DNA of 64,000 bases, taken from sequence record MZ501103; one strand, given 5' to 3'. Shown here in pieces: positions 5,713 through 60,398 of the stretch. The translations under genes were made by a program, and so were the position numbers. This DNA is from Escherichia phage SelmaRatti. Under the pieces are notes generated by a model. It was not told where the DNA came from, made no database searches, and saw only the letters and a list, made by a program, of their open reading frames with translations. Every line of letters starts with the position of its first letter. Within the stretch, counting starts at the first letter, position 1.

Positions 5713-6105
5713 TCATTCATCATTTAGGCCTGGAACATAAATCCCAATACGGTTTAATTGTTCTTTAGCTTCTTTGAGAATATCTGGAGTGTACTCCCAA
5801 ATATCATCTTTCACCTGTAAAAGATGGGGCGAACAACCGTCATCAGGCACACGACATATGGCAAAACCACGTGGATGGAACAAAGAGAAATTTAGGGAAA
5901 CAATTAAACCCATAGAGGACAATTCATTCCAGTCCATCTCCCATTCCCCGGCATATCCAGACAGGAAAACGCCAGTGCAGGGATCATCTATTTGCTGCTC
6001 TGGAAAAGTGAAGGAGGCTTGCTTTACCCCCAACCAACGTTGTAGCAGCTTCTCAGCACGCTTCACCAAACTAGGATCAATCTGGCGCCAATATACTTGT
6101 TCCAT
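5713..6105 (-). CDS. hypothetical protein (130 aa), tandem paralog of 6115-6543
   Basis: ORF; shares segment ELxxMGLxxxLNxxLFxP with neighbour. Confidence 0.55.
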   Translation of the reverse strand: MEQVYWRQIDPSLVKRAEKLLQRWLGVKQASFTFPEQQIDDPCTGVFLSGYAGEWEMDWNELSSMGLIVSLNFSLFHPRGFAICRVPDDGCSPHLLQVKDDIWEYTPDILKEAKEQLNRIGIYVPGLNDE

Positions 6106-6114
6106 TCTGCCTCC

Positions 6115-6543
6115 TTAAGCAGTTAAACCTGGGATCATATACCCGAAACGGCGAAGTTTCTGAATCCCCTCATTCACTTCTTCCGGTGAGTAAGACCAAC
6201 CATAACGTTCATTAACCTGAAAACCAGGAGATTCACTAGTTTTATAGTTAACAACTAGGCGATGCTTAGCAGGCATAAACAGCTTATAGTTTAACGCAAA
6301 AACTAAGCCCATTTCGTCTAACTCTTTCCAGCCCACAATCTCTTCAAGACCATCCTCTACCTGCACAATTAAACCAATACAGGGGGCCTCATCAATATCA
6401 TCCTTAAAAGCAAAGGAGATTTCGTTATTCTCACACCATATTTTCAAAGAGTTAATAGCCTCATTATACAGGCTAGCTGGGAGAGTACGCCAAAAGTTAA
6501 CCAAAATTGGGTTAGCTTCTTTAGAGAATACATTATTGAACAT
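6115..6543 (-). CDS. hypothetical protein (142 aa), tandem paralog of 5713-6105
   Basis: ORF; WKELDEMGLVFALNYKLFMP similar to neighbour. Confidence 0.55.
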   Translation of the reverse strand: MFNNVFSKEANPILVNFWRTLPASLYNEAINSLKIWCENNEISFAFKDDIDEAPCIGLIVQVEDGLEEIVGWKELDEMGLVFALNYKLFMPAKHRLVVNYKTSESPGFQVNERYGWSYSPEEVNEGIQKLRRFGYMIPGLTA

Positions 6544-7835: not shown

Positions 7836-9662
7836 TTATTTAAGATTTAAGTGTTTTACTCTACCAAGCACTTCTTTTTGTTTCCCAGAATTGAAAGGCC
7901 TACTGCCCGGGGATCCCAGGTACCCGCAAACCCTACGTGTAACCTCTATTTCTTCAGATCCACAACCCGGACATACAAACCCACGTTCAGAAGCAACAGA
8001 TTCACCCATATATCCGCAGTTGAAACACTCATCAATTGGTATATTAACACCAATATAATGGCTACATTCTAGCCCCTTATCCACCACATACTCAAGAGCT
8101 TTGTGGAACTTTTTCATTTGAGGTAGTTCCACAAATGATATATTACCACCATTAGCTATTTTGGTAAAATGAGCTTCGTACTCAAATTTAGTATCTGGGG
8201 CTACTTTCTCTCTTACGTCCAAATGGTGACTATTAGTAAGATAGCCTTTATCTGTTAACCAAGAATACTCTGGGAACCTACGTTCTAGTAATTTATTAAA
8301 ACGATTACATAGAGACTCACTAGGAGTAGCATACAAGCTAAACCCAAGATTAGTCTCATTAGCTTTAACTTCGCAACGATTTTTTAGGTGAGTGAGAACT
8401 TCCTCTGTAAATTCAATACAATCCCTATGGGTTTGTGGTAGACCAAACATTATTTGGCACATCTCATAGACCCCAATGTATCCAAGAGATACAGAAGATC
8501 TACCCTCAAAAATAGGCCATACATACTCTTCCCCATCTAAACGCACACCAAAACCCCCGTGCATATAAAGAATAGGGGCTTGTTTAGCCTTCACTTTCTT
8601 AAGTCTATTTAAGAAAAAATCATGAGCTTCAAAAGCCTCATCCACATATTTGTCCAGAATATCCCAGAAATCTTCAAAAACCCCATCTGCCTCAGCAGCA
8701 ACCATAGGTAGATTAATAGACACTACACCTAAATTATTGCGCCCTGCAATTTCTCCGGAGGGGATAGCAGATAAAAAGCTACGACAACCCATAGGTGCTT
8801 TAAAATCACCAGTAACAGCTACAACTTTCTCGTAACTTAAATAGTCCGGGTACATACGGGTAGCAGAACACTCAAGTGCTAGCTGTTTTATATCGTAGTT
8901 AGGGTCGCCTGGATTTTTATTTAACCCTTCTTTAACTGAGAATACTAGTTTAGGGAAGATAGGGGTTGACTCAGCAGCACCTAAACCTTTAATACGGTTT
9001 TGGAGGATGGCTTTCTGAATCATCCTTTCCTCCCACCCCTGTCCTAGCCCAAAGCCAAGCGTAACAAAAGGAGTCTGTCCATTAGAGTTAAATAATGAAT
9101 TAGTTTCATACTCTAGGGCTTGGAATGCGTCATAACACTCTTTTTCAGTAAGTTCAGTAGCATATACAGCAGCTTTCCTTTCATCCTTGAGCCAACGTAG
9201 ACCACGACCCAGATGTTTATTGTAAGACTTTCTGACATACGGGGCTAGAACCTCATCGATACGATCAATAGAGGTGCCACCATACTGAGCACCAGATACT
9301 TGGGCAATAATCTGAGCAGTGATTGCACATGCAGTAGTTATGGATTTAGGAGTTTCAATATTTGCATTACCAATTTTAGTACCATTCTTCAGCATGCTAC
9401 CAAGGTCTACTAAGCAACAGTTAGTGTACCCCTGTGCTCTGTAATCCATATCATGAATGTGTATCTTACCTAGATTATGGGCGTCTAACAGGTGTTTAGG
9501 TAACTCTTGCGATACTAAATACTTGTTAACTTCCCCAGCTAATAAGTCTCTTTGAGTATGGAACATCTCACTAGGTTTATTAGCATTATTATGCTGTAAA
9601 TCCTTATCCGCAGTTAGAGTGAGCAGACCTTTGCAATTCTCAATTAATTCATTCTCTGTCAT
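7836..9662 (-). CDS. nrdD: anaerobic ribonucleoside-triphosphate reductase (class III RNR)
   Basis: 608 aa; C-terminal glycyl-radical motif RVCGYLG preceded by Cys-rich zinc ribbon (CFNCGY...CPGCGS). Confidence 0.85.
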   Translation of the reverse strand: MTENELIENCKGLLTLTADKDLQHNNANKPSEMFHTQRDLLAGEVNKYLVSQELPKHLLDAHNLGKIHIHDMDYRAQGYTNCCLVDLGSMLKNGTKIGNANIETPKSITTACAITAQIIAQVSGAQYGGTSIDRIDEVLAPYVRKSYNKHLGRGLRWLKDERKAAVYATELTEKECYDAFQALEYETNSLFNSNGQTPFVTLGFGLGQGWEERMIQKAILQNRIKGLGAAESTPIFPKLVFSVKEGLNKNPGDPNYDIKQLALECSATRMYPDYLSYEKVVAVTGDFKAPMGCRSFLSAIPSGEIAGRNNLGVVSINLPMVAAEADGVFEDFWDILDKYVDEAFEAHDFFLNRLKKVKAKQAPILYMHGGFGVRLDGEEYVWPIFEGRSSVSLGYIGVYEMCQIMFGLPQTHRDCIEFTEEVLTHLKNRCEVKANETNLGFSLYATPSESLCNRFNKLLERRFPEYSWLTDKGYLTNSHHLDVREKVAPDTKFEYEAHFTKIANGGNISFVELPQMKKFHKALEYVVDKGLECSHYIGVNIPIDECFNCGYMGESVASERGFVCPGCGSEEIEVTRRVCGYLGSPGSRPFNSGKQKEVLGRVKHLNLK

Positions 9663-50639: not shown

Positions 50640-51300
50640 GGATGGCACAACACTTTCTAGTAGACTCCTAAGTTTCTAGGAAAACTCTCACTTTCTAGGG
50701 CAGTTTCTCTCCAACGTTACATATCCTAGGCCGGTTTTCCTATACAGGGCGGTTATGGGGAGGGCGGTTATTTCTAGAAGACATTTTTTGAAAACATTTT
50801 TCCAGAAATTACTGTCGGATTTGCACCTTGTGTTTCTAGAAATTTATGGTCGGATTTGCACAATCGCCTAAGTTTTTAGGAACATATAATCTCCTGAAAA
50901 TGGCAGCATTATTTCGGGCCGAAGGCCCATGATTGCCTGAGTTTTTAGGGCCACAGAAATTTTCACTTGTCAAGCTATTTTGCCCCATTTTGCTAATAAA
51001 ATTTTACTTTTTCTGCACCTATCTCAAATTAACCCAAATTATCTCAACTCTTCCCCAAAATCCCCGCAAATCGGGTGCCCCGCACCAAACATGCGCCCCT
51101 CTCACAGTTCCCTCAAATTTCTCTCGCTATCTCACCTTCACTACAAACCTATACAATCACACACCATCTCATCGAAGTCACAAAAATTTCATCGGATTCG
51201 CACAGCTCAACACATGTCGGATTTGCACATACTCTAGCTAATTCCACAGGATTCGAACGCAGTTCGTGATTGCTGGAGTTTTTAGGGAGACAGATTCGTC
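50640..51300. repeat. dispersed short repeat family, about 8 copies of (A/G)GTTT(C/T)TAGG
   Basis: Copies near 50646, 50663, 50684, 50774, 50833, 50871, 50942, 51283. Confidence 0.55.
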
Positions 51301-51415
51301 ACTCTCACGAATTTATAAATTTTTTTCGGGTCGGATTTGCACACTACCAAAAATTGTCGGATTTGCACATACATGCCCGCACGTAACACCCGTGGAGCAT
51401 TGTCGGATTTGCACA
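50814..51415. repeat. iteron-like direct repeats, 7 copies of GTCGGATTTGCACA
   Basis: Copies at 50814, 50849, 51192 (variant TCGGATTCGCACA), 51216, 51330, 51356, 51402, all same orientation. Confidence 0.8.
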
Positions 51416-51420
51416 AAAGC

Positions 51421-51438
51421 GCAGGGCAATTGCCCTGC
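51421..51438. repeat. perfect 18-bp palindrome GCAGGGCAATTGCCCTGC
   Basis: Exact reverse-complement symmetry. Confidence 0.8.
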
Positions 51439-51443
51439 TCGCC

Positions 51444-51615
51444 TGAATGCGAATGATAATGAGAATCAATCTCGTTTAAAAAGCTGAATGCGAATGATAA
51501 TGATTCGCATTTAAGAAAGGGAATGAGAACTATTCAAGAAGTGAAATGATTCTCATTTAAAAAGTGGAGTGATTATCGGTTAGCTAGTGAAATGCGAATG
51601 ATAATGATTCGCATT
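51444..51615. repeat. three copies of AATGCGAATGATAATGA, two forming palindromes AATGCGAAT-N7-ATTCGCATT
   Basis: Copies at 51444, 51485, 51591; related half-sites AATGATTCTCATT at 51543. Confidence 0.75.
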
Positions 51616-51648
51616 TAAAAATGGAAGTGAGAAACACTATTATTTAAG

Positions 51649-51730
51649 TTATCCACAGACTTATCAACAGCACGATTTGACTTGACAGAATCCTAGCCAT
51701 TTTGAGGCGTTATTAACAGACTTATCCACA
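51649..51730 (+). promoter_or_regulatory. cluster of DnaA-box-like 9-mers (TTATCCACA x2, TTATCAACA, TTATTAACA)
   Basis: Exact consensus TTATCCACA at 51649 and 51722; one-mismatch boxes at 51661 and 51710. Confidence 0.6.
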
Positions 51731-51738
51731 GCTTATCC

Positions 51739-51758
51739 TACTGTATAAATATACAGTA
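51739..51758. promoter_or_regulatory. LexA-box-like palindrome TACTGTATAAATATACAGTA
   Basis: CTGT-N8-ACAG with AT-rich spacer, matching the SOS-box consensus. Confidence 0.6.
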
Positions 51759-51998
51759 TTCCTATGTAGTGAATAATTCTAATATAGGCCTAAAACGTCC
51801 TGAATCGCATTCTAACGCGTTTAATTTTGGTGGAGGTATTTTAATATGGGGAAATTTGAGGAAGGCCATAAAAGGTGGGGCCAGTAGTTGCGCCCCGTGA
51901 TTATTAGTGGTAGATATATTTTTGCCAATAGCGGCGGATACTGTCGCCACCAGCGGAATCATTCACAGCCTCAACATTACCCGCGAAAATATATAATC

Positions 51999-52343
51999 TC
52001 ATTGTGCCACCTTTCGAAACGCTATTTCAATACTATCCGCAGTGGATTGAATATATGCGCCTTTCATTATCAGGCGCTCGGTGCATATCTTGCGAAAAAT
52101 GTTGATAAAATCATCTTCATTTTCTGCAATTAATGCCTCACCCATAACCTGAACGTCACAAGACCCAAAAGTTAAAAATTGAAACGCTAGTTCACGGGCG
52201 ACAACGGCAGAAATTTTATAATGCGCCTTACCCTCATAAATATTAACCACGCCTTTATAAACTGGTGAAAGCTGATTTAAATAGTTTGCTAATAATGCCG
52301 GACGGCAATTAGCAACAAAACGATTGCCCTCATAAATAACCAT
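51999..52343 (-). CDS. hypothetical protein (114 aa), last gene of the inverted-repeat-flanked module
   Basis: ORF with strong SD GGGAGG. Confidence 0.55.
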   Translation of the reverse strand: MVIYEGNRFVANCRPALLANYLNQLSPVYKGVVNIYEGKAHYKISAVVARELAFQFLTFGSCDVQVMGEALIAENEDDFINIFRKICTERLIMKGAYIQSTADSIEIAFRKVAQ

Positions 52344-52466
52344 TTTATAACCTCCCGATCAGATAGCCTGATAAAAGCATAAAGATACCCAACGAAAGAG
52401 GGTCATTCTTAAATAAGGTGGCGATAAAACCGCCAGCCATTGCAAGGAGAACAACAATAACGCTTT

Positions 52467-52679
52467 TCATAGTACCCCACGAAACGCAGCGTAAAAGGTG
52501 GCAAAATGTTTAACCGTTTCAGCGATCACGTTGCCGCGCTTATCAAATTTTTTCTCGGTAACACGAAAGGCATTTTTGTTACGTGCTACATATTCGATTT
52601 TACAATCTGGACGCTCGAACGTGTTAACATCCACCAGCTTAAAGCCTTTCGAACGTGCAAGAGAAACGTTGCGTATCAT
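52467..52679 (-). CDS. hypothetical basic protein (70 aa)
   Basis: ORF with SD AAGGAG. Confidence 0.5.
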   Translation of the reverse strand: MIRNVSLARSKGFKLVDVNTFERPDCKIEYVARNKNAFRVTEKKFDKRGNVIAETVKHFATFYAAFRGVL

Positions 52680-52681
52680 TT

Positions 52682-52864
52682 TTATTCTCCTTTACTAATC
52701 ATGCAGCCCAGCAGATAAGAAAATACAGCAATGCCAGCGCCAATAGTAACCATTGGTTTTGTATTTACTAAACCGCAATAAGAATCTTGAATACCATAAG
52801 CGGTGGCGAAAAGAGTCAGAATAGCGCCCAAGATACCCGCCAGAATAGCTCGAAAAATAACCAT
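52682..52864 (-). CDS. small two-helix membrane protein (60 aa)
   Basis: MVIFRAILAGILGAILTLFATAYG and VTIGAGIAVFSYLLGCMI hydrophobic helices; SD AGGGGA. Confidence 0.5.
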   Translation of the reverse strand: MVIFRAILAGILGAILTLFATAYGIQDSYCGLVNTKPMVTIGAGIAVFSYLLGCMISKGE

Positions 52865-52913
52865 TTTTATTTCCCCTAGTTAGTGGGTGATACTGTATAT
52901 CCCCCGTTATTAC

Positions 52914-53144
52914 TTACATTAAAATAATTTTTGCAGCTTGTTTTTTGGTGCAATGTTCCGCTTTCAATTCATCCAGCAAAAAACCAGCCGTTGGCTGATC
53001 AATTTGATCATTATCATAAAGCGCCTGAATGGTAGTGTAAGTTTTAGCAATGCCGTATTCTTGCACCATTTCATGAATGATGACGCGGTTAGATACCCAG
53101 CCTTGCGCGGTGAACAGATGACTAGCAGAAGAATAAGCAACCAT
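52914..53144 (-). CDS. hypothetical protein (76 aa)
   Basis: Start set at the Met preceded by SD GGAGG rather than the longer ORF-track start at 53201. Confidence 0.5.
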   Translation of the reverse strand: MVAYSSASHLFTAQGWVSNRVIIHEMVQEYGIAKTYTTIQALYDNDQIDQPTAGFLLDELKAEHCTKKQAAKIILM

Positions 53145-53261
53145 TTTAAGCCTCCAAATTTTTGGGAAAATTTTCAGTCCACCGTTTCGGTGTAAAGGCA
53201 TTATAACAAAAAAGGCCGCCGATTATGGCGACCTTTACAAAACTTTACATTAGGTTAATTA

Positions 53262-54236
53262 TTACTCGCTTTCGCTGTTTTGGGTAAAGGTGGAAATATC
53301 AATACCTTTCACCATTTCATCAATCATTTCAGCGATATTAAAACTTTGCACCATTTCCAGCATTGCCGCCTCCATAGCCGCTCCTGCTACCGCTTTCGCT
53401 TTCGCATTAGTCGGGGCGTACTGGTCAACCGCTACACTCAGCAGGTTAGCGATCACTACACGACCAATCGGCGTATCAATATACCCTTTAATCATAAACG
53501 GTGCTTTTTTAGCCGCTACTTTCGTAATTTGAGTCAGTGCAATTTTACCCGCTTCCAGTTTTGCAGCGTTTACAACAGCAGACTTATTGGCGGCAACGAT
53601 AGAAGATACTTTAGTCATGATATTTCCTTTATTTTCAGTAGTTTGAGTGCTAGAATTTACAGCATATTTTTTCGTGTTGTCAATAGGCTGATTTTCCTCC
53701 TTCCAGAAGGAAAAGCCCGCGCTTTCGATAACCCCATCATATATGTATGGGTATATTTCCGACGGTAGCAAAAAATTGCCATCATCATCAAAGGCCATTA
53801 CAGCCGCCAGACGATAACCGTCACTAATTGACCGATTCCAGCCAACGGATAAATAACTCCAAAATGAATCAAGAAAGTTTTCAACGTCATAAAGGTCCTT
53901 ATCATAAGGCTCATAATTTTCTATCGAAAAAGCTTCTAAGCCCACCCCAGTATCATAGGCTTTTACTGTGCTACCTTTTACAATTATAAAATCAGCATCC
54001 AGCCCCCTACTAGAAAGTAGGTGATTATCTCGATTATATAAAACAAGCGTTGCCCCTTGCTTGTACAGTTGCAAAAAACTACTCATATCATAGGCGTCAT
54101 ATTCATCAAAAAAGTTTTGATGAATAGTTTCAGCCTTGTTAACAAAGTGTTTGATGATGGATGTTCTGCTACCATCCAGCAGGTTACACAGCGAACTTTT
54201 TAAGACGGCTGCGTTATCTGGTTTATATAGCCTCAT
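53262..54236 (-). CDS. hypothetical protein (324 aa) with Ala/Lys-rich amphipathic helical C-terminus
   Basis: SD GGGAGG; C-terminal 130 aa of repeated amphipathic/hydrophobic helices (GRVVIANLLSVAVDQ, AVAGAAMEAAMLEMV). Confidence 0.6.
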   Translation of the reverse strand: MRLYKPDNAAVLKSSLCNLLDGSRTSIIKHFVNKAETIHQNFFDEYDAYDMSSFLQLYKQGATLVLYNRDNHLLSSRGLDADFIIVKGSTVKAYDTGVGLEAFSIENYEPYDKDLYDVENFLDSFWSYLSVGWNRSISDGYRLAAVMAFDDDGNFLLPSEIYPYIYDGVIESAGFSFWKEENQPIDNTKKYAVNSSTQTTENKGNIMTKVSSIVAANKSAVVNAAKLEAGKIALTQITKVAAKKAPFMIKGYIDTPIGRVVIANLLSVAVDQYAPTNAKAKAVAGAAMEAAMLEMVQSFNIAEMIDEMVKGIDISTFTQNSESE

Positions 54237-54351
54237 TTGTTGGCCTCCCTCGTTAATCGGTAGAAGAATGATAATGGTATTTTCTTTCTAGGGCAAGTAT
54301 TATTTTACCTTTTTATTTTCCTTGCCTAACGCCTAGTTTTATGCTAACCGC

Positions 54352-54423
54352 GCAGCGGTGTAATAAAGAGCAAAACACGGCGAAGCCACCAGGCCGACGC
54401 GTCGAGGCTTTACTTTAATATTA
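54352..54423 (-). promoter_or_regulatory. structured 5-prime leader candidate (long imperfect inverted repeat) upstream of the 324-aa gene
   Basis: GCAGCGGTGTAATA pairs with TATTACACCGCAGC across about 45 nt containing the palindrome GACGCGTC. Confidence 0.35.
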
Positions 54424-54497
54424 CACCGCAGCGTTTTGCTCGTTAGAAAGCGATTTAGGCCGCGTAAAATTGATTGCAGTTGTTAACACTACCTTTC

Positions 54498-54517
54498 TAC
54501 CCTGTATATTTATACAG
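54498..54517. promoter_or_regulatory. LexA-box-like palindrome CCCTGTATATTTATACAGTA
   Basis: CTGT-N8-ACAG; reverse complement nearly identical to the box at 51739. Confidence 0.6.
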
Positions 54518-54526
54518 TAGGAAAAC

Positions 54527-54596
54527 CTGTGGATAAGCCCTTATATCACCACCTATTGTGTCAAATCATTTTGTGCTGTGGATAACTTTGTGGATA
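54527..54596 (-). promoter_or_regulatory. cluster of three DnaA-box consensus 9-mers (TGTGGATAA on plus strand)
   Basis: Exact TTATCCACA on minus strand at 54527-54535, 54576-54584, 54588-54596. Confidence 0.65.
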
Positions 54597-54635
54597 ACTT
54601 AAATGATAGTGGTTCTCACTTAAACCGATAGTTTC

Positions 54636-54716
54636 TTATAGTTATTATTATAGTAGTGATTATTTTTATAGTTATTATTTTTATAGTTATTATTTTTATA
54701 GTTATTATTTCTATTT
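54636..54716. repeat. AT-rich tandem repeat, about 4 units of ATAGTTATTATTTTT
   Basis: Head-to-tail units; roughly 90 percent A+T; 40 bp from the DnaA-box cluster. Confidence 0.75.
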
Positions 54717-55453
54717 AATTTATAAGTATATTATATAATATGAAATAGTTAGTTGGCTAATGAGATTTTCCGGGATTAGTAGTCTGCTAATAGTTCAGGC
54801 TGTTACAATCCACCAGCATGATTATCATCCTAGCAATTATTAGTCTGCTATCTTTCTAATACACAACAACAAATAAAAGTCAATTAATTTATTTCATAAA
54901 ATAACTCAATGCCCCTTGATTTTAAAAAGTCAATACCTTTTACAACTATTTTTCAATTTTGCTTTTGTTAAATATTTGTTAAATCGAAAATGAGCCGCCT
55001 AAAACGCCCTAGAAAGCGGTAAAATTTTCAGGTATGCCATTGCATAGCCTACCCTCGTTTATCGTCACCACGAGCTTTTTAGATTTTGTCAAGTAGGGGA
55101 GAGCAAATATAAATGAAAAAATTACTTGCCTATTTGCTTTGTTTTGTGGTATTCGCGCGCCCGTTTCTTTTAATTTTAGGCCGTCACCGCACGCCATCCG
55201 GTGAATCGTGTCTTTACGTTTCTTTACAAAAATAAGGTTGCGCCATTTTCGGGAATCCCCTATTATTTATCACGTAGGGCGGCAATGACGAACTACACGG
55301 CGGGAAGTTTACCGCCGCGCTCTTTAAAAATTGGGTATATCTTAAAGTCTATCGGCGGTAAACTTATCTATTATAAGGAATCGACGATATGAAACAAACT
55401 TTATTAATCACCGGTAAACCAGCCAAAAATTGGATGGCAATACTAGAAAGCTG

Positions 55454-55754: not shown

Positions 55755-56006
55755 ATGAAAAACGTTATTACCGCGCCTAAAATTGGTCAATCCGTCTTCA
55801 TTCCTTTCGTTACTAAAACGGATGAATTAACCGGAAAAGCCGAACGTATTAAAGGTGCGGCGCTTATGCCGTTCGATACAATCGATGCGGTATACGCTGA
55901 AACGGAACGTAGTAACAACGGAAAAACTATTTATAGCGTTCGGGTTAAATCTGGCGACGCTGTAAAGGTTGTTCAACGTAACGAAAAATGGGAAGCCGTA
56001 GCGTAA
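55755..56006 (+). CDS. hypothetical pre-early protein (83 aa)
   Basis: ORF with conserved TGGAGTT RBS context. Confidence 0.55.
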   Translation: MKNVITAPKIGQSVFIPFVTKTDELTGKAERIKGAALMPFDTIDAVYAETERSNNGKTIYSVRVKSGDAVKVVQRNEKWEAVA

Positions 56007-56100
56007 TAGTGTTACTTTATATTCCTCTGTTTCAGGGGAATATAATAATTAACATTAGGTTAATCTAATCCCTTAAATTAAATTAATTGGAGTTATAATC

Positions 56101-56517
56101 ATGGCTAACGTTAAAACCGAAAAATCTGCAAAATTCGCATGGAATGAAGAAAACACCCAGCAGGCTGTTACCATGTATCAGCAGCTCATCAATGAAAACG
56201 GCTTGGAGTTCGCCAACAGCGACGGCCTGAGAGAGATCGCAAAAGCAGTGGGCGCGGCTTCTCCCGTATCCGTTCGGTCAAAATTGTCCAGAGCGAAAGT
56301 CTATCAAAAAAGCGATAAGCCTCGCAAGGTTGGCGGCGGCAGTTCAATTCGCAAGGCGCACTATGTACGCGTTATTGCAAAACATGCTATTGATTCCGGC
56401 ATTATCAAAGACGCTGACGATTTAGCAAGCCTTGAAATCGCAAAATTGGAAACGCTGGACGCCGTGGCGCAACTATTGGGCGTTGCCGATGAAGTAAAGC
56501 AGGCCGCAGGTGAATAA
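56101..56517 (+). CDS. hypothetical pre-early protein (138 aa)
   Basis: ORF with TGGAGTTATAATC-ATG context. Confidence 0.55.
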   Translation: MANVKTEKSAKFAWNEENTQQAVTMYQQLINENGLEFANSDGLREIAKAVGAASPVSVRSKLSRAKVYQKSDKPRKVGGGSSIRKAHYVRVIAKHAIDSGIIKDADDLASLEIAKLETLDAVAQLLGVADEVKQAAGE

Positions 56518-56574
56518 ATTTAATTAGCTGGGAATATTCCCCGCTATAATTTCCCTTTGACTGGAGTTATTAAA

Positions 56575-56772
56575 ATGATCTTTTACCCCACTGAATCGCT
56601 AATTTTAGGCTTATTTATTATGGCGGCCTCATTATTATTTGCTTATTTTCAAAATGATTTAGATTCGTATTATTTTAAGCGAAAAGCTAAATTGGCAAAG
56701 CGTTTAGGTCTGATTTGTTTTATTGCCGCCATTGCTCTTGGTGTAAGTTCAAGCCTAATGCCTATTAGTTAA
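56575..56772 (+). CDS. small membrane protein (65 aa)
   Basis: ATG 56575 after CTGGAGTT RBS; two TM helices. Confidence 0.5.
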   Translation: MIFYPTESLILGLFIMAASLLFAYFQNDLDSYYFKRKAKLAKRLGLICFIAAIALGVSSSLMPIS

Positions 56773-56869
56773 ATATTGCAAATTATAACGCCACTCATTT
56801 GCGGCGTTATATCTGGCAATATTTGCCAATAACAAACGTTTTTAATCCCTTCAATGGAGTTTTATTACT

Positions 56870-58534
56870 ATGGTTATTTCCGCAGAAAAACAAATCCAGA
56901 TTCTCAACCTTGCCGCTGATTTTAATTTTTATGGTAAACGTCTGCGCGCTACTAAGCTGGAAGTTTGTGACGATATATCAAAAGCTGTTTATGATACGCC
57001 GAAACATTCCACCGCTATTTGTGACTGGCTGGAAGCAAATAAGCCAGCGAAACCGAAAGCGGCAAAAGCTGAAAAGGCGATTAAAAACGATGATCGCCCC
57101 GAAGCGGCTGGGATTGTTTCTAGTACGGTGGAGCAATGGGAAGTAAAACAAGGTAAACGCTTTATTATTACATCGATTCAGAATAATACGTTCCCACATA
57201 AAAACTTTTTAGCCTCGCTTGAACAATATGCCCAGTTTATCGGCGCTGATTTGCTTGTTTCTAAGTATATTTATAATAAAAACGGATTCCAAAATGGAGA
57301 AGGGGCAGACGGTATCAAATATGATTCCGCATTTGATAAATATATCTGCGAGAAAAATGTATTTTTAAACAATCGCCGTTTTGCTTTCATGGCTGAAATT
57401 AATGTTTTGCCAACCGCAGATTATCCGCTTTCTGGATTCGCTGAAACTGCAACGGCTTTAAATATTGAAGGGCTGGCAATTGGTCACGCTAAAATTACCG
57501 CCGAAAGCGTGCCAGCTTTAAAAGGTGGAGTAGTGCGCCGTATGTATTCAACCGGAACGGCAACGTTAAAAAACTACATTCAGCAGAAAGCAGGACAAAA
57601 GGCCGGGGCGCTGCATAATTTCGGGGCGCTTATTGTTGAGTTCGACGACGACGGGGAATTTTTTGTTCGCCAGCTTGAAACGATGGACGAAAGCGGCGTT
57701 TTTTACGATTTGAATATTTACGCCACTCCCACCGGATGCTATGAAACAACGGGGCACGTTTTAGGTTTACAATATGGCGATATTCACGCCGAAAAATTAG
57801 ATGATGATTGTGCCGTTGCGTCATGGGCTGGCGAAAATAGCTTGCTTGATATTTTAAAGCCTAAATATCAGTTTGTGCATGACGTGCATGATTTTACATC
57901 GCGCAATCACCACAACCGCGCGTCTGGTGTATTCCTAGCGAAACAGTATGCAGCCGGACGTGATAAAGTTCTGGATGATCTCATCGACACGGGGCGCGTG
58001 CTGGAATCAATGGAACGCGATTTCTCGCAAACAATCATCGTGGAGTCTAACCATGATCTGGCGCTTTCCCGCTGGCTGGATGATCGTAATGCTAACATTA
58101 AAGACGACCCAGCAAACGCGGAACTATATCACCGCCTTAATGCTGCAATCTATGAAGCTATTGCAGAAAAAGACGACACTTTCAACGTGCTAGATTATGC
58201 GCTGCGCAAGGTTGCAGGCTGTGAATTTAACGCCATTTTCCTTACTACTGATCAATCTTTCAAGATTGCAGGCATTGAATGCGGCGTACACGGTCACAAT
58301 GGCATTAACGGAAGCCGTGGCAATCCGAAACAGTTTAAGAAATTGGGCAAATTAAACACCGGACACACTCACACGGCTAGTATTTACGGCGGCGTATATA
58401 CCGCTGGCGTGGCTGGTTCCCTTGATATGGGTTACAACGTTGGCGCGTCAAGCTGGACGCAAACGCATTTAATTACCTATGCGAACGGCCAGCGCACTTT
58501 GATTGACTTTAAAAACGGCAAATTTTTCGCGTAA
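56870..58534 (+). CDS. A1: A1-like pre-early protein, SbcD/Mre11-like metallophosphoesterase
   Basis: 554 aa; phosphoesterase motifs GDIH, HDVHD, ESNHD, GVHGHNG, GHTHT; position in pre-early operon upstream of dmp. Confidence 0.6.
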   Translation: MVISAEKQIQILNLAADFNFYGKRLRATKLEVCDDISKAVYDTPKHSTAICDWLEANKPAKPKAAKAEKAIKNDDRPEAAGIVSSTVEQWEVKQGKRFIITSIQNNTFPHKNFLASLEQYAQFIGADLLVSKYIYNKNGFQNGEGADGIKYDSAFDKYICEKNVFLNNRRFAFMAEINVLPTADYPLSGFAETATALNIEGLAIGHAKITAESVPALKGGVVRRMYSTGTATLKNYIQQKAGQKAGALHNFGALIVEFDDDGEFFVRQLETMDESGVFYDLNIYATPTGCYETTGHVLGLQYGDIHAEKLDDDCAVASWAGENSLLDILKPKYQFVHDVHDFTSRNHHNRASGVFLAKQYAAGRDKVLDDLIDTGRVLESMERDFSQTIIVESNHDLALSRWLDDRNANIKDDPANAELYHRLNAAIYEAIAEKDDTFNVLDYALRKVAGCEFNAIFLTTDQSFKIAGIECGVHGHNGINGSRGNPKQFKKLGKLNTGHTHTASIYGGVYTAGVAGSLDMGYNVGASSWTQTHLITYANGQRTLIDFKNGKFFA

Positions 58535-59663: not shown

Positions 59664-60398
59664 ATGAATCAAGTTAAAACGAATATTACCCGCAATTTCC
59701 CGCATATTTCCCGCGTCATGATTTGGGACTTAGACGGCACTATCGTTAATTCATTCCATCGCGTAGCGCCTTGCTTTGATGATAACGGGAATCTAGATTT
59801 AAATAAGTATTCCCGCGAAGCCTGCAAACATAATTTAATAATGCAAGATACTTTATTGCCGCTTGTTACATATATGCGCCAGTGCATGAATGACGCAAAT
59901 ACTTTAAACATTATCTGTACAGCTCGACTGATGAGAAAGTCGGACTATTATTATTTGCGTAAACAAGGCTTACGAGGGGGTGTGAATAGTAATATCCGTG
60001 TATTTTCCCGCGATACACTACACAAATATTTTAAAGCTGATAAGGTTAGCGAAATATACCACAGCAAAGACGCAGTATATAAATCTTATTATTTTGAATT
60101 ATTTAAACAGTTATATCCGAACGCTGATTTTACAATGATTGATGATCATAAAGGCGTGCTATCAGCGGCGGCATCATACGGATTTAAAACGCTGGACGCG
60201 CAAGCCGTTAACGATATTCTATCAATCGGCGTGGCATTGATAGGTGAAACCTTTATCGATGAATCTCTTGAGGATGATAATGATTATCAGTTCCTAGCCG
60301 ACCGTCTGCAATTATGTTGGGAAGGTATGACCGAGGAAGAACGCGCAGAATATAGTTGCAGCCCGCAACAATATATTGAGAAACTAAAAGTTGCGTAA
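59664..60398 (+). CDS. dmp: 5-prime-deoxyribonucleotidase, HAD-family (Dmp-like)
   Basis: 244 aa; HAD motif I in VMIWDLDGTIVNS. Confidence 0.7.
   Translation: MNQVKTNITRNFPHISRVMIWDLDGTIVNSFHRVAPCFDDNGNLDLNKYSREACKHNLIMQDTLLPLVTYMRQCMNDANTLNIICTARLMRKSDYYYLRKQGLRGGVNSNIRVFSRDTLHKYFKADKVSEIYHSKDAVYKSYYFELFKQLYPNADFTMIDDHKGVLSAAASYGFKTLDAQAVNDILSIGVALIGETFIDESLEDDNDYQFLADRLQLCWEGMTEEERAEYSCSPQQYIEKLKVA

What the first reader, a model, noticed from the sequence alone, without database searches (positions are those of the whole stretch)
51718..54600. 2.8-kb five-gene module bracketed by inverted repeats that each pair a LexA-box-like palindrome with DnaA-box clusters
Seen in sequence: 51721-51756 (CTTATCCACAG-CTTATCC-TACTGTATAAATATACAG) and the reverse complement of 54501-54536 (CTTATCCACAG-GTTTTCC-TACTGTATAAATATACAG) are about 36-bp inverted repeats. 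Each holds a CTGT-N8-ACAG palindrome fitting the SOS-box consensus fused to an exact DnaA box, with more DnaA boxes outside (51649-51718; 54576-54596). Between them five minus-strand ORFs with strong GGAGG-type RBSs form an operon: a 324-aa protein with an amphipathic helical C-terminus, a 76-aa protein, a 60-aa two-helix membrane protein, a 70-aa basic protein and a 114-aa protein, none recognised. Inference: a cargo module wired to host LexA and DnaA; a bacteriocin-like toxin/immunity set, an anti-defence set or an invertible segment are all possible.
Basis: partly seen in the sequence, partly recalled or inferred. Interest (0 to 1): 0.85.

Follow-up and report, generated by a model that had tools for sequence, protein, structure and literature searches.

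The report
T5 phage pre-early repeats, LexA-like sites
This is the already described right half of the first-injected DNA of a T5-like phage: host-takeover genes flanked by the known DnaA-box inverted repeats. The one apparently unreported point is that each repeat also carries a family-wide conserved, near-perfect binding site for the host SOS repressor LexA.

Summary
The window is a Tequintavirus; one protein is 100% identical to a protein of phage SelmaRatti/Bas34. The region 51.4-54.9 kb lies in the terminal repeat, the first-step-transfer (FST) DNA.

The two inverted repeats are T5's IRC-spacer-IRD (Repeat Region 2) and IRD'-spacer-IRC' (Repeat Region 3, the start of the injection-stop region). 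Their DnaA boxes have been described since 1987. The ORFs are the T5 pre-early genes 011-016. These are dispensable in the laboratory and several are toxic to the host. The 70-aa protein belongs to the family of the Ung-dependent nickase.

The CTGT-N8-ACAG palindrome is T5's annotated "palindrome D". It matches the LexA consensus at 19/20 positions (left copy) and 17/20 (right copy). It is conserved out to Proteus and Vibrio T5-like phages, next to a pair of DnaA boxes. Its rare changes are one-sided, which argues against selection for a hairpin. I found no paper calling it a LexA site.

It does not sit on the cargo promoter, and a relative recorded on DH5α (a recA1 strain) keeps both boxes. 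An SOS switch is therefore unlikely. A cis-acting docking site for host proteins is my best inference, and it is untested.

The parts
51625..51771 (.). Left inverted-repeat arm. It is the homologue of T5 IRD'-spacer-IRC' (Repeat Region 3, the proximal part of the injection-stop region).
   Evidence: Inverted repeats I1 and I2. Aligned with T5, BF23 and 27 other distinct arms. T5 annotation. Described by Davison 2020.
51739..51758 (.). LexA-operator-like 20-mer TACTGTATAAATATACAGTA (core CTGT-N8-ACAG at 51741-51756). Same 20-mer as T5 'palindrome D', on the opposite strand of the T5 map (central AA vs TT).
   Evidence: One mismatch to the LexA consensus, 0.01 hits expected by chance. T5 sequence. 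CTG..CAG is intact in 37 of 37 genomes on this side.
51649..51657 (+). DnaA box TTATCCACA (outer pair, box a).
   Evidence: Mean column conservation 98%.
51661..51669 (+). DnaA-like box TTATCAACA (outer pair, box b, 3 bp after box a).
   Evidence: Davison 2020 calls this type a 'DnaA*' box.
51710..51718 (+). DnaA-like box TTATTAACA (inner pair, box c).
51722..51730 (+). DnaA box TTATCCACA (inner pair, box d), 8 bp before the LexA-like 20-mer.
54487..54621 (.). Right inverted-repeat arm. It is the homologue of T5 IRC-spacer-IRD (Repeat Region 2). It carries a 12-bp deletion that removes one DnaA box.
   Evidence: T5 annotation.
54500..54519 (.). LexA-operator-like 20-mer CCCTGTATATTTATACAGTA (core at 54502-54517).
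   Evidence: CTG..CAG is intact in 33 of 39 genomes on this side.
54528..54536 (-). DnaA box TTATCCACA.
54577..54597 (-). Pair of DnaA boxes TTATCCACA (54577-54585 and 54589-54597), 3 bp apart.
54268..54296 (-). Promoter-like site TTGCCC-17-TATCAT with an A-rich upstream tract, just upstream of the first gene. It is the positional equivalent of T5P4, the promoter upstream of T5 gene 011.
   Evidence: T5 annotation. The promoter upstream of gene 011 is described as experimentally characterised in bioRxiv 10.64898/2026.04.02.716235.
53262..54236 (-). 324-aa protein of family DUF7566 (T5 gene 011 type; this gene is split into ORF011 and ORF012 in the T5 record AY587007).
53200..53236 (-). Terminator-like hairpin (53211-53236) followed by the extended -10-like sequence TGTTATAAT (53208-53200). 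This is the boundary between two transcription units.
   Evidence: T5 has a terminator plus promoter T5P5 at the equivalent place. The TGTTATAAT was read directly.
52914..53144 (-). 76-aa protein, phrog_5145 (equivalent to ORF013 of AY587007).
52682..52864 (-). 60-aa protein with two transmembrane helices, phrog_5607 (equivalent to ORF014 of AY587007).
   Evidence: A T5 pre-early protein with two transmembrane domains is toxic and lytic when expressed alone.
52467..52679 (-). 70-aa basic protein, phrog_4227, the family annotated 'endonuclease nicking abasic sites generated by host uracil glycosylase Ung' (T5.015 type).
   Evidence: PHROG E=1.2e-50. 98.6% identical to the T5 and BF23 proteins. 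RefSeq annotation of SPC35_0012. Function as described.
52345..52470 (-). 41-aa ORF, phrog_19184.
51999..52343 (-). 114-aa protein, phrog_4379 (equivalent to ORF016 of AY587007).
51870..51897 (-). GC-rich hairpin followed by a T-run after the last gene. It is the positional equivalent of the terminator predicted in BF23.
   Evidence: Read. BF23 annotation. It was not picked up by the scanner because the loop is too long.
51443..51630 (.). Injection-stop-type palindromic repeats (GAATGCGAATGATAATGATTCGCATT), the homologues of T5 DRC / palindromes E-I. They lie outside the module but are contiguous with the left arm.
   Evidence: Repeat families D2, D6, D8 and I3. T5 annotation.

Best explanation
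This region is the right-hand half of the first-step-transfer (pre-early) DNA in the terminal repeat of a T5-like phage.

The genes are the rightward pre-early genes (T5 011-016). [quoted passage not shown]

The two ~147-bp inverted arms are T5's IRC-spacer-IRD and IRD'-spacer-IRC'. Each arm is a composite array of sites for host DNA-binding proteins. It has two pairs of DnaA boxes and, at the edge facing the genes, a near-consensus LexA operator.

My best inference is that pre-existing host DnaA and LexA load onto these arrays as the DNA enters. The resulting nucleoprotein complexes would act in cis. They would mark both ends of the rightward pre-early unit, and the left arm (T5's right-hand Repeat Region 3) would form the first part of the injection-stop region. 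They would not act as an SOS-inducible switch for the cargo.

What is shown: identity with the T5 elements, the motif matches, their non-randomness, their family-wide conservation, and their position relative to promoters.

What is inferred: that LexA and DnaA actually bind, and what that binding does.
For: Identity with T5:
- The region is 86-89% identical to the left terminal repeat of BF23, SPC35 and many other Tequintavirus genomes.
- The arms align with the T5 IRC/IRD and IRD'/IRC' repeats.
- Davison 2020 describes these repeats, their paired DnaA boxes 3 bp apart, and the variable coding region between them.

LexA match:
- 19/20 and 17/20 matches to the consensus TACTGTATATATATACAGTA. 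The consensus is as quoted in PMC8072944.
- 0.01 such hits are expected by chance in the window.

Conservation:
- When arms are located through their DnaA/spacer part only, both arms are present in all 39 informative Tequintavirus loci.
- CTG-N10-CAG is intact in 37/37 genomes on the injection-stop side and 33/39 on the other side.
- The box persists next to a DnaA-box pair, 7-9 bp away, in Sugarlandvirus, Pantoea phage AAS21, Proteus phage 1 (A1 protein 42% identical) and Vibrio phage pVp-1 (A1 32% identical). In these phages the flanking DNA no longer aligns.

Pattern of change:
- The half-site variants seen are CTGG and CCAG, and most other changes fall in the centre.
- Every change affects one half only and none is compensated. 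This fits a dimeric protein site, not a selected hairpin.

Position:
- In T5 the order of entry is LexA box (9330), DnaA boxes (to 9462), palindromic repeats (to 9631), then the 7.9% nick and shear point.
- The array is therefore the last DNA to enter before the pause.
Against: - No binding data exist for LexA or DnaA on this DNA. The BF23 paper states that experimental studies of these sites are lacking.
- In six genomes the LexA-like box of the right arm (Repeat Region 2 side) has one decayed half-site (ACAA or ATGT), and two Vibrio loci show no box there at all. That copy is therefore not indispensable.
- Proteins bound to DNA that is already inside the cell do not obviously stop DNA that is still being pushed in.
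- From my own recollection, not checked here, T5 DNA transfer has been reported not to need metabolic energy. That would rule out models in which transcription pulls the DNA in.
- The putative recognition helix of the phage DNA-binding protein A2 is invariant across the family. A phage protein could therefore be the true ligand of one of the conserved motifs.
Confidence: 0.5

Rival explanations
1. The palindrome, and perhaps the DnaA-like boxes, are recognised by a phage protein rather than by LexA. The obvious candidate is the dimeric DNA-binding protein A2 acting with A1, both of which are required for second-step transfer. On this view the arms are where A1/A2 act to release the paused DNA, and the match to the LexA consensus is incidental or reflects competition for the site.
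For: - A2 is essential for second-step transfer and binds double-stranded DNA.
- Its helix-turn-helix recognition helix (S54, V58, R59, K61, L62) is invariant or nearly so across 26 sequences, including the Vibrio and Proteus phages. This parallels the invariance of the DNA motif.
- The AF2 model (pLDDT 83) has a three-helix DNA-binding domain.
Against: - A chance match to the host LexA consensus at 19 of 20 positions is very unlikely.
- The pause occurs before any phage protein has been made, so the stop itself cannot depend on A2.
Confidence: 0.2
2. One reading: the boxes are true SOS operators, so that the cargo genes (or the divergent A2-A1 operon) are repressed by LexA and induced by DNA damage.
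For: - The right box lies in the intergenic region between the divergent pre-early gene sets.
- A promoter-like site on the + strand (TTAACA-16-TATATT, 54483-54510) has its -10 element inside the box.
- In Proteus and some Vibrio T5-like phages the equivalent box lies 2-9 bp upstream of a TTGACA/TTGGCA hexamer pointing towards A2-A1.
Against: - The box is about 210 bp upstream of the promoter-like site of the first cargo gene, and the other box lies downstream of the operon's terminator.
- The -35 element of the + strand site is missing in T5 and in several relatives. Where the centre of the box reads AAAT, the -10 becomes TATAAA.
- Pre-early genes are expressed within minutes in ordinary, uninduced cells.
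- ESCO40, whose recorded host is DH5α (recA1, from my own knowledge), keeps both boxes.
Confidence: 0.1
3. The arms matter mainly as recombination substrates. As conserved inverted flanks they would allow the cargo segment to be inverted or swapped between co-infecting phages.
For: - The cargo between the boxes ranges from 1.7 to 4.0 kb and differs in gene content between relatives. Davison also notes this.
- The DUF7566 gene and the following gene lie on the opposite strand relative to A2 in Sugarlandvirus, compared with Tequintavirus and AAS21.
- The asymmetric centre of the palindrome is only ever AA or TT. It therefore appears to flip as a unit rather than through point-mutation intermediates.
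Against: - No recombinase is encoded in or beside the segment.
- All 39 informative Tequintavirus loci share one orientation.
- Recombination alone does not explain why specific protein-site motifs are the conserved positions. The spacers between the motifs diverge more, with between-arm consensus agreement of 0.59 in the spacer against 1.00 in the consensus DnaA boxes.
Confidence: 0.12
4. The palindromes act as DNA structures (a cruciform, or a hairpin near the nick) that jam DNA passage, with no protein involved.
For: The injection-stop region is rich in palindromes, and the literature invokes secondary structure as one possibility.
Against: - All 13 distinct variant 20-mers that differ within the paired positions change one arm only. 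None shows a compensatory change.
- The centre is never a perfect palindrome.
- A 9-bp AT-rich stem would be weak.
Confidence: 0.05

Closest known systems
T5 Repeat Regions 2 and 3 (IRC-spacer-IRD and IRD'-spacer-IRC') and the injection stop signal. Sources: Heusterspreute 1987 and Wang 2005, as summarised by Davison 2020, bioRxiv 10.1101/866236.
   Same: This is the same element by homology. It has the same position in the terminal repeat, the same paired DnaA boxes 3 bp apart, the same 131-bp core, the same variable coding region between the arms, and the same palindrome D.
   Different: The right arm in this phage lacks one DnaA box because of a 12-bp deletion. The published descriptions I could read treat palindrome D as an unexplained palindrome or a possible restriction site, and they never mention LexA or SOS.
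T5 pre-early genes 011-016, including the Ung-dependent nickase T5.015.
   Same: The proteins are 85-99% identical to the T5 and BF23 orthologues for the small proteins (60-aa protein 70% to BF23). The order and orientation are the same, and there is an internal terminator plus promoter in the same place.
   Different: DUF7566 is one 324-aa ORF here, but it is split into ORF011 and ORF012 in AY587007. A 41-aa ORF is present here and in BF23 and SPC35, but it is not annotated in T5.
Canonical E. coli/Salmonella SOS boxes (LexA operators of recA, sulA, umuDC and colicin genes).
   Same: The 20-bp motif is the same, and the match is closer to the consensus than most chromosomal operators. The variants tolerated here (CTGG, CCAG) are those seen in genuine boxes, from my own knowledge.
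   Different: Genuine operators overlap or closely follow a promoter. These boxes do not do so consistently. No damage-inducible gene is attached to them.
DnaA-box clusters outside promoters (oriC, datA, DARS).
   Same: They are also clustered, closely spaced consensus and near-consensus DnaA boxes in one orientation. The right arm is additionally next to AT-rich tandem repeats.
   Different: T5 replication origins map elsewhere, and the replication genes are not yet in the cell at this stage. The pairing with a LexA operator is not a feature of oriC, datA or DARS, from my own knowledge.
Use of host LexA by temperate phages and mobile elements (coliphage 186 tum, CTXphi, GIL01). This comparison rests on my own knowledge.
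   Same: A phage genome carries consensus LexA operators.
   Different: Those elements use LexA to couple induction to DNA damage. T5-like phages are strictly lytic, and the boxes here lie at the edges of a cis-acting repeat rather than on a switch promoter.

Membership tests
T5-type FST inverted repeats (IRC-spacer-IRD / IRD'-spacer-IRC') | Located in the terminal repeat of a T5-like phage, between the A2-A1-dmp side and the end of the repeat. | tested here: met
   The A2, A1 and T5p007 homologues lie at 55755-58534. The region maps to terminal-repeat coordinates ~5.1-9.3 kb of BF23 and SPC35.
T5-type FST inverted repeats (IRC-spacer-IRD / IRD'-spacer-IRC') | Two arms of ~131 bp or more in inverted orientation, flanking the rightward pre-early genes. 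| tested here: met
   Arms at 51625-51771 and 54487-54621, 82-85% complementary. They are alignable with the T5 arms.
T5-type FST inverted repeats (IRC-spacer-IRD / IRD'-spacer-IRC') | Eight DnaA or DnaA-like boxes, arranged as four pairs with 3-bp spacing, two pairs per arm. | tested here: met
   The left arm has both pairs. The right arm has one complete pair plus one single box, because of the 12-bp deletion. The total is seven, as in T5 itself.
LexA operator (SOS box) | Match to CTGT-N8-ACAG / TACTG(TA)5CAGTA. | tested here: met
   19/20 and 17/20 matches, with 0.01 hits expected by chance.
LexA operator (SOS box) | Overlaps or abuts the promoter of the regulated gene. | tested here: inconclusive
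   The box is about 210 bp from the promoter-like site of the first cargo gene, and the other copy lies after the terminator. A weak, poorly conserved promoter-like site overlaps the right box. In Proteus and Vibrio relatives a box abuts a -35-like hexamer.
LexA operator (SOS box) | Bound by LexA, with the adjacent genes induced by DNA damage. | not testable with these tools
   This needs EMSA, footprinting or ChIP, plus expression data. No report was found in the library.
DnaA-box cluster | Multiple TTATNCACA 9-mers clustered beyond chance. | tested here: met
   All 5 exact TTATCCACA boxes in 64 kb lie in the arms, with 0.72 expected and 0/100 shuffles reaching 5. The looser pattern TTWTNCACA is not enriched window-wide (10 found against 7.5 expected), so the signal is the clustering of the exact box.
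Programmed invertible segment (Hin/Gin/Cin type) | A site-specific recombinase is encoded in or beside the segment. | tested here: not met
   None of the ORFs matches a recombinase family in Pfam or PHROGs.
Programmed invertible segment (Hin/Gin/Cin type) | Both orientations are found among close relatives or within populations. | tested here: not met
   All 39 informative Tequintavirus loci have the genes on the strand opposite to A2. Only the distant Sugarlandvirus lineage is inverted.
SOS-regulated bacteriocin/immunity/lysis operon | A colicin-type toxin domain with immunity and lysis genes, behind a promoter carrying LexA boxes. | tested here: not met
   [not shown]

The most novel reading that the evidence does not exclude
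The injection-stop region of T5-like phages may be an array of operators for abundant, pre-existing host DNA-binding proteins. The array would comprise a consensus LexA operator, four DnaA boxes and, in the enterobacterial members, Fur-box-like palindromes. These proteins, loaded onto the entering DNA, would be the long-sought host component that holds the genome at the 8% pause until A1/A2 release it. LexA would then be a previously unrecognised host factor in two-step DNA transfer by a strictly lytic phage.
Probability: 0.15. Interest if true: 0.75.

Novelty: new member of a known kind. Interest (0 to 1): 0.4.

Why it matters
How T5 stops DNA injection at 8% and then restarts it has been open since the 1960s. 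Papers from 2023 to 2026 still call the mechanism poorly understood and list only repeats, palindromes and DnaA boxes.

Recognising that the most conserved palindrome is a consensus LexA operator, kept next to a DnaA-box pair across the whole family, adds a concrete and cheaply testable host factor to that question. If LexA turns out to be irrelevant, the finding reduces to a correct re-description of a known region.

They are the T5 pre-early host-takeover genes.

Tried and rejected
- A classical SOS-regulated promoter. Promoter scans in this window and in Proteus and Vibrio relatives give no geometry that is conserved across the family.
- Hairpin or cruciform selection. All variants are one-sided, so this was rejected.
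- A known RNA in the intergenic regions. Rfam gives nothing below E=0.06, and both hits are far below their gathering scores.
- The T5 PN25 promoter sequence, recalled from memory. It was not found in the window with up to 3 mismatches.
- Davison 2015 (PMC4743489), the main review. It is not held in the library, so I cannot exclude that it mentions LexA.
- A circularity in my own analysis. My first conservation table selected arms by requiring CTGT-N8-ACAG, which made the "100% conserved arms" result circular. I redid the analysis with anchors outside the box. That revealed CTGG/CCAG variants and six decayed copies on the right-arm side.
- SOS-triggered restart of transfer (A1-driven DNA damage leading to LexA cleavage). 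This is unlikely because a relative whose recorded host is recA1 DH5α keeps both boxes.

Full report
**What the region is.** A megablast of 51400-54900 finds 456 phage records. Nearly all are Tequintavirus or Epseptimavirus genomes at 86-89% identity, and wherever the records are annotated the match falls in the left terminal repeat, also called the first-step-transfer DNA. The annotated BF23 and SPC35 records place the match between the A2/A1 operon and the end of the terminal repeat. The A2, A1 and T5p007 homologues lie just to the right in the window, at 55755-58534. The 324-aa protein is 100% identical to bas34_0151 of Escherichia phage SelmaRatti, so the window very probably comes from that phage. 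Relative to the standard T5 map the window is reverse-complemented.

**The repeats are known.** The T5 record AY587007 annotates inverted repeats C and D at 6022-6152. It annotates D' and C' at 9332-9462, and "palindrome D" at 9330-9349. The window's arms align with these. Davison's 2020 preprint describes the following:
- The 131-bp IRC-spacer-IRD and IRD'-spacer-IRC' repeats.
- Their eight DnaA or DnaA-like boxes, arranged in pairs 3 bp apart and first noted in 1987.
- Their conservation in 25 T5-like phages.
- The highly variable coding region between them.
- A proposal that membrane-bound DnaA holds the DNA at the injection stop signal.

The BF23 paper (2023) and two 2026 papers repeat this description and say that the mechanism remains untested or poorly understood.

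**The observation itself.** The quoted sequences are correct, apart from a one-base offset on the right arm. The arms are longer than stated, about 147 nt each. The signal is far beyond chance:
- Two hits to the 20-mer LexA consensus with up to 3 mismatches, against 0.01 expected.
- All five exact TTATCCACA boxes in the 64 kb lie inside the arms, against 0.72 expected.
- The right arm carries a 12-bp deletion that removes one box.

**The genes.** All six real ORFs belong to known phage families:

| ORF | Family |
|---|---|
| 324 aa | DUF7566 / phrog_4263 |
| 76 aa | phrog_5145 |
| 60 aa, two transmembrane helices | phrog_5607 |
| 70 aa | phrog_4227 (Ung-dependent abasic-site nickase, T5.015 type) |
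| 114 aa | phrog_4379 |

- The small proteins are mostly 85-99% identical to their T5 and BF23 orthologues.
- A mechanical 66-aa ORF at 51762-51962 has no family and overlaps the terminator hairpin, so I do not count it as a gene.
- A 2026 preprint reports that 13 of the 17 T5 pre-early genes are dispensable. It also reports that 011, 013 and 015 are toxic when expressed alone, and that a promoter upstream of 011 was characterised experimentally.
- The genes form two transcription units, separated by a terminator-like hairpin plus TGTTATAAT, as annotated in T5.
- An AF2 model of DUF7566 (pLDDT 81) shows an alpha/beta N-terminal domain and a helical C-terminal domain. There is no informative structural match.
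- The C-terminal ~120 residues form a widespread module, with 673 cluster representatives, many carrying other N-termini.

**The LexA-like palindrome.** The left copy, TACTGTATAAATATACAGTA, differs at one central position from the consensus used for Salmonella and E. coli. It is the same 20-mer as T5's palindrome D, on the opposite strand of the T5 map, so the central AA/TT is flipped. I collected relatives in two ways:
- Forty loci came from IMG/VR through the A2 protein.
- More distant Demerecviridae came through the A1 protein.

My first table selected arms by requiring the motif, so its result was circular. I then located the arms by their DnaA/spacer part alone. The results are as follows.
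- Both arms are present in all 39 informative Tequintavirus loci.
- CTG-N10-CAG is intact in 37 of 37 genomes on the injection-stop side and in 33 of 39 on the other side.
- The exceptions have one decayed half-site (ACAA in four Tequintavirus genomes, ATGT in two Vibrio phages).
- Two further Vibrio loci (Cody and L055) show no box at all on the A2 side. Cody instead has two on the injection-stop side.
- The box also persists in Sugarlandvirus, Pantoea phage AAS21, Proteus phage 1 and Vibrio phage pVp-1. There the flanks no longer align and A1 is only 32-42% identical. On the injection-stop side it always lies 7-9 bp from a pair of DnaA boxes.
- The half-site variants are CTGG and CCAG, and most other changes are central.
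- Every change is one-sided, with no compensatory partner.
- The central dinucleotide is always AA or TT, never AT or TA. It therefore seems to flip as a unit.

This pattern fits a site for a dimeric protein and argues against selection for a hairpin. None of the papers I could search links LexA or SOS to T5-like first-step DNA. The 16-mer and 20-mer strings also occur in no paper in the library. Davison 2015, Wang 2005 and Heusterspreute 1987 could not be read.

**What it probably does.** A classical SOS switch is unlikely, for four reasons:
- The right box lies about 210 bp upstream of the promoter-like site for the first gene.
- The left box lies beyond the terminator.
- The one promoter-like site that overlaps a box is weak and not conserved.
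- ESCO40, whose recorded host is DH5α (recA1, from my own knowledge), retains both boxes. This makes LexA cleavage unlikely to be required for growth.

In T5 the order of entry is LexA box, then four DnaA boxes, then palindromic repeats, then the 7.9% nick and shear point. The composite array is thus the last DNA to enter before the pause. The pause happens without any new protein synthesis. That last point is established T5 biology, taken from my own knowledge and consistent.

My best inference is therefore that the arms are cis-acting docking sites for pre-existing host DnaA and LexA. They would bound the rightward pre-early unit and form part of the stop region. This extends Davison's DnaA proposal by one more host protein. 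It is inference only. The mechanism by which bound proteins would hold the DNA is not explained, and the right-hand copy is dispensable in some phages.

**Rivals.**
- The phage protein A2 could be the ligand. Its putative recognition helix is invariant across the family. However, it has a GcrA/Myb-type fold rather than a LexA-type fold, and it is not present when the pause begins.
- The arms may also serve recombination. The cargo length varies from 1.7 to 4.0 kb. The DUF7566 gene and its neighbour are inverted relative to A2 in Sugarlandvirus. Against this, no recombinase is present and Tequintavirus shows a single orientation.

**Verdict.** The region and its genes are already described for T5, and this phage is another member of that group. 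The LexA-operator reading of palindrome D is well supported at the sequence level and appears unreported, but it is functionally untested.

Noticed in passing
window 51443-51630 (also 60270-60294): The palindromic injection-stop repeats (GAATGCGAATGATAATGATTCGCATT) resemble the Fur-box consensus GATAATGATAATCATTATC. Eight of the 53 sites in the window with >=13/19 matches fall in this 190-bp stretch, and the best scores 16/19. Shuffles of the segment give a mean of 0.13 such sites. Similar sites (14-16/19) lie beside the left arm in T5, BF23, Sugarlandvirus, Pantoea AAS21 and Proteus phage 1, but not in Vibrio T5-like phages. The copies are repeats of one another, so they are not independent evidence. 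Davison 2020 does not mention Fur.
   Followed up: partly
L041, L042, L046 (Sugarlandvirus) compared with window 53262-54236: The DUF7566 gene and the following 164-aa gene lie on the same strand as A2 in Sugarlandvirus, but on the opposite strand in Tequintavirus and Pantoea AAS21. The segment between the inverted repeats was therefore inverted at least once during family evolution.
   Followed up: yes
L048, L049, L053, L056-L058 (Proteus and Vibrio T5-like phages), beside the A2-side LexA-like box: In these phages the A2-side box is followed within 2-9 bp by TTGACA or TTGGCA. About 15 bp further on there is a conserved alternating purine-pyrimidine tract (TGYTACRCRYRCGCG). This takes the place of the DnaA boxes seen in Tequintavirus. 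It could be a promoter or a Z-DNA-prone element.
   Followed up: no
window 54345-54440: There is a large imperfect hairpin between the right arm and the promoter of the first gene. As RNA it folds at -56.8 kcal/mol, z = -2.3. It corresponds to the T5 'inverted repeat B'' region. There is no Rfam match.
   Followed up: partly
window 54633-54729: Five tandem copies of a 15-bp AT-rich unit (TTTTTATAGTTATTA) lie about 35 bp beyond the outer DnaA-box pair of the right arm. The layout superficially resembles DnaA boxes next to an AT-rich unwinding element at a replication origin.
   Followed up: no
window 50806-51415: There are at least five copies of TGTCGGATTTGCAC (the T5 'direct repeat D' type) between the stop-region palindromes and the estimated end of the terminal repeat at ~50950. 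Their function is unknown.
   Followed up: no
window 53262-54236 compared with L003 (T5 AY587007) 1918-2924: DUF7566 is one 324-aa ORF here and in BF23 and SPC35. In this T5 record it is split into ORF011 and ORF012 by a frame change near residue 230. The C-terminal ~120 residues form a widespread helical module found with many different N-termini (673 cluster representatives).
   Followed up: partly
window 51745-51752 and 54506-54513; all related loci: The centre of the LexA-like palindrome is always ATAAATAT or ATATTTAT. These are reverse complements of each other. The two single-step intermediates (ATATATAT, the perfect consensus, and ATAATTAT) do not occur among the 76 tabulated copies. 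The two arms of one genome can carry either combination. This suggests that the centre flips as a unit, by gene conversion or palindrome-mediated inversion.
   Followed up: partly
[not shown]
   Followed up: partly
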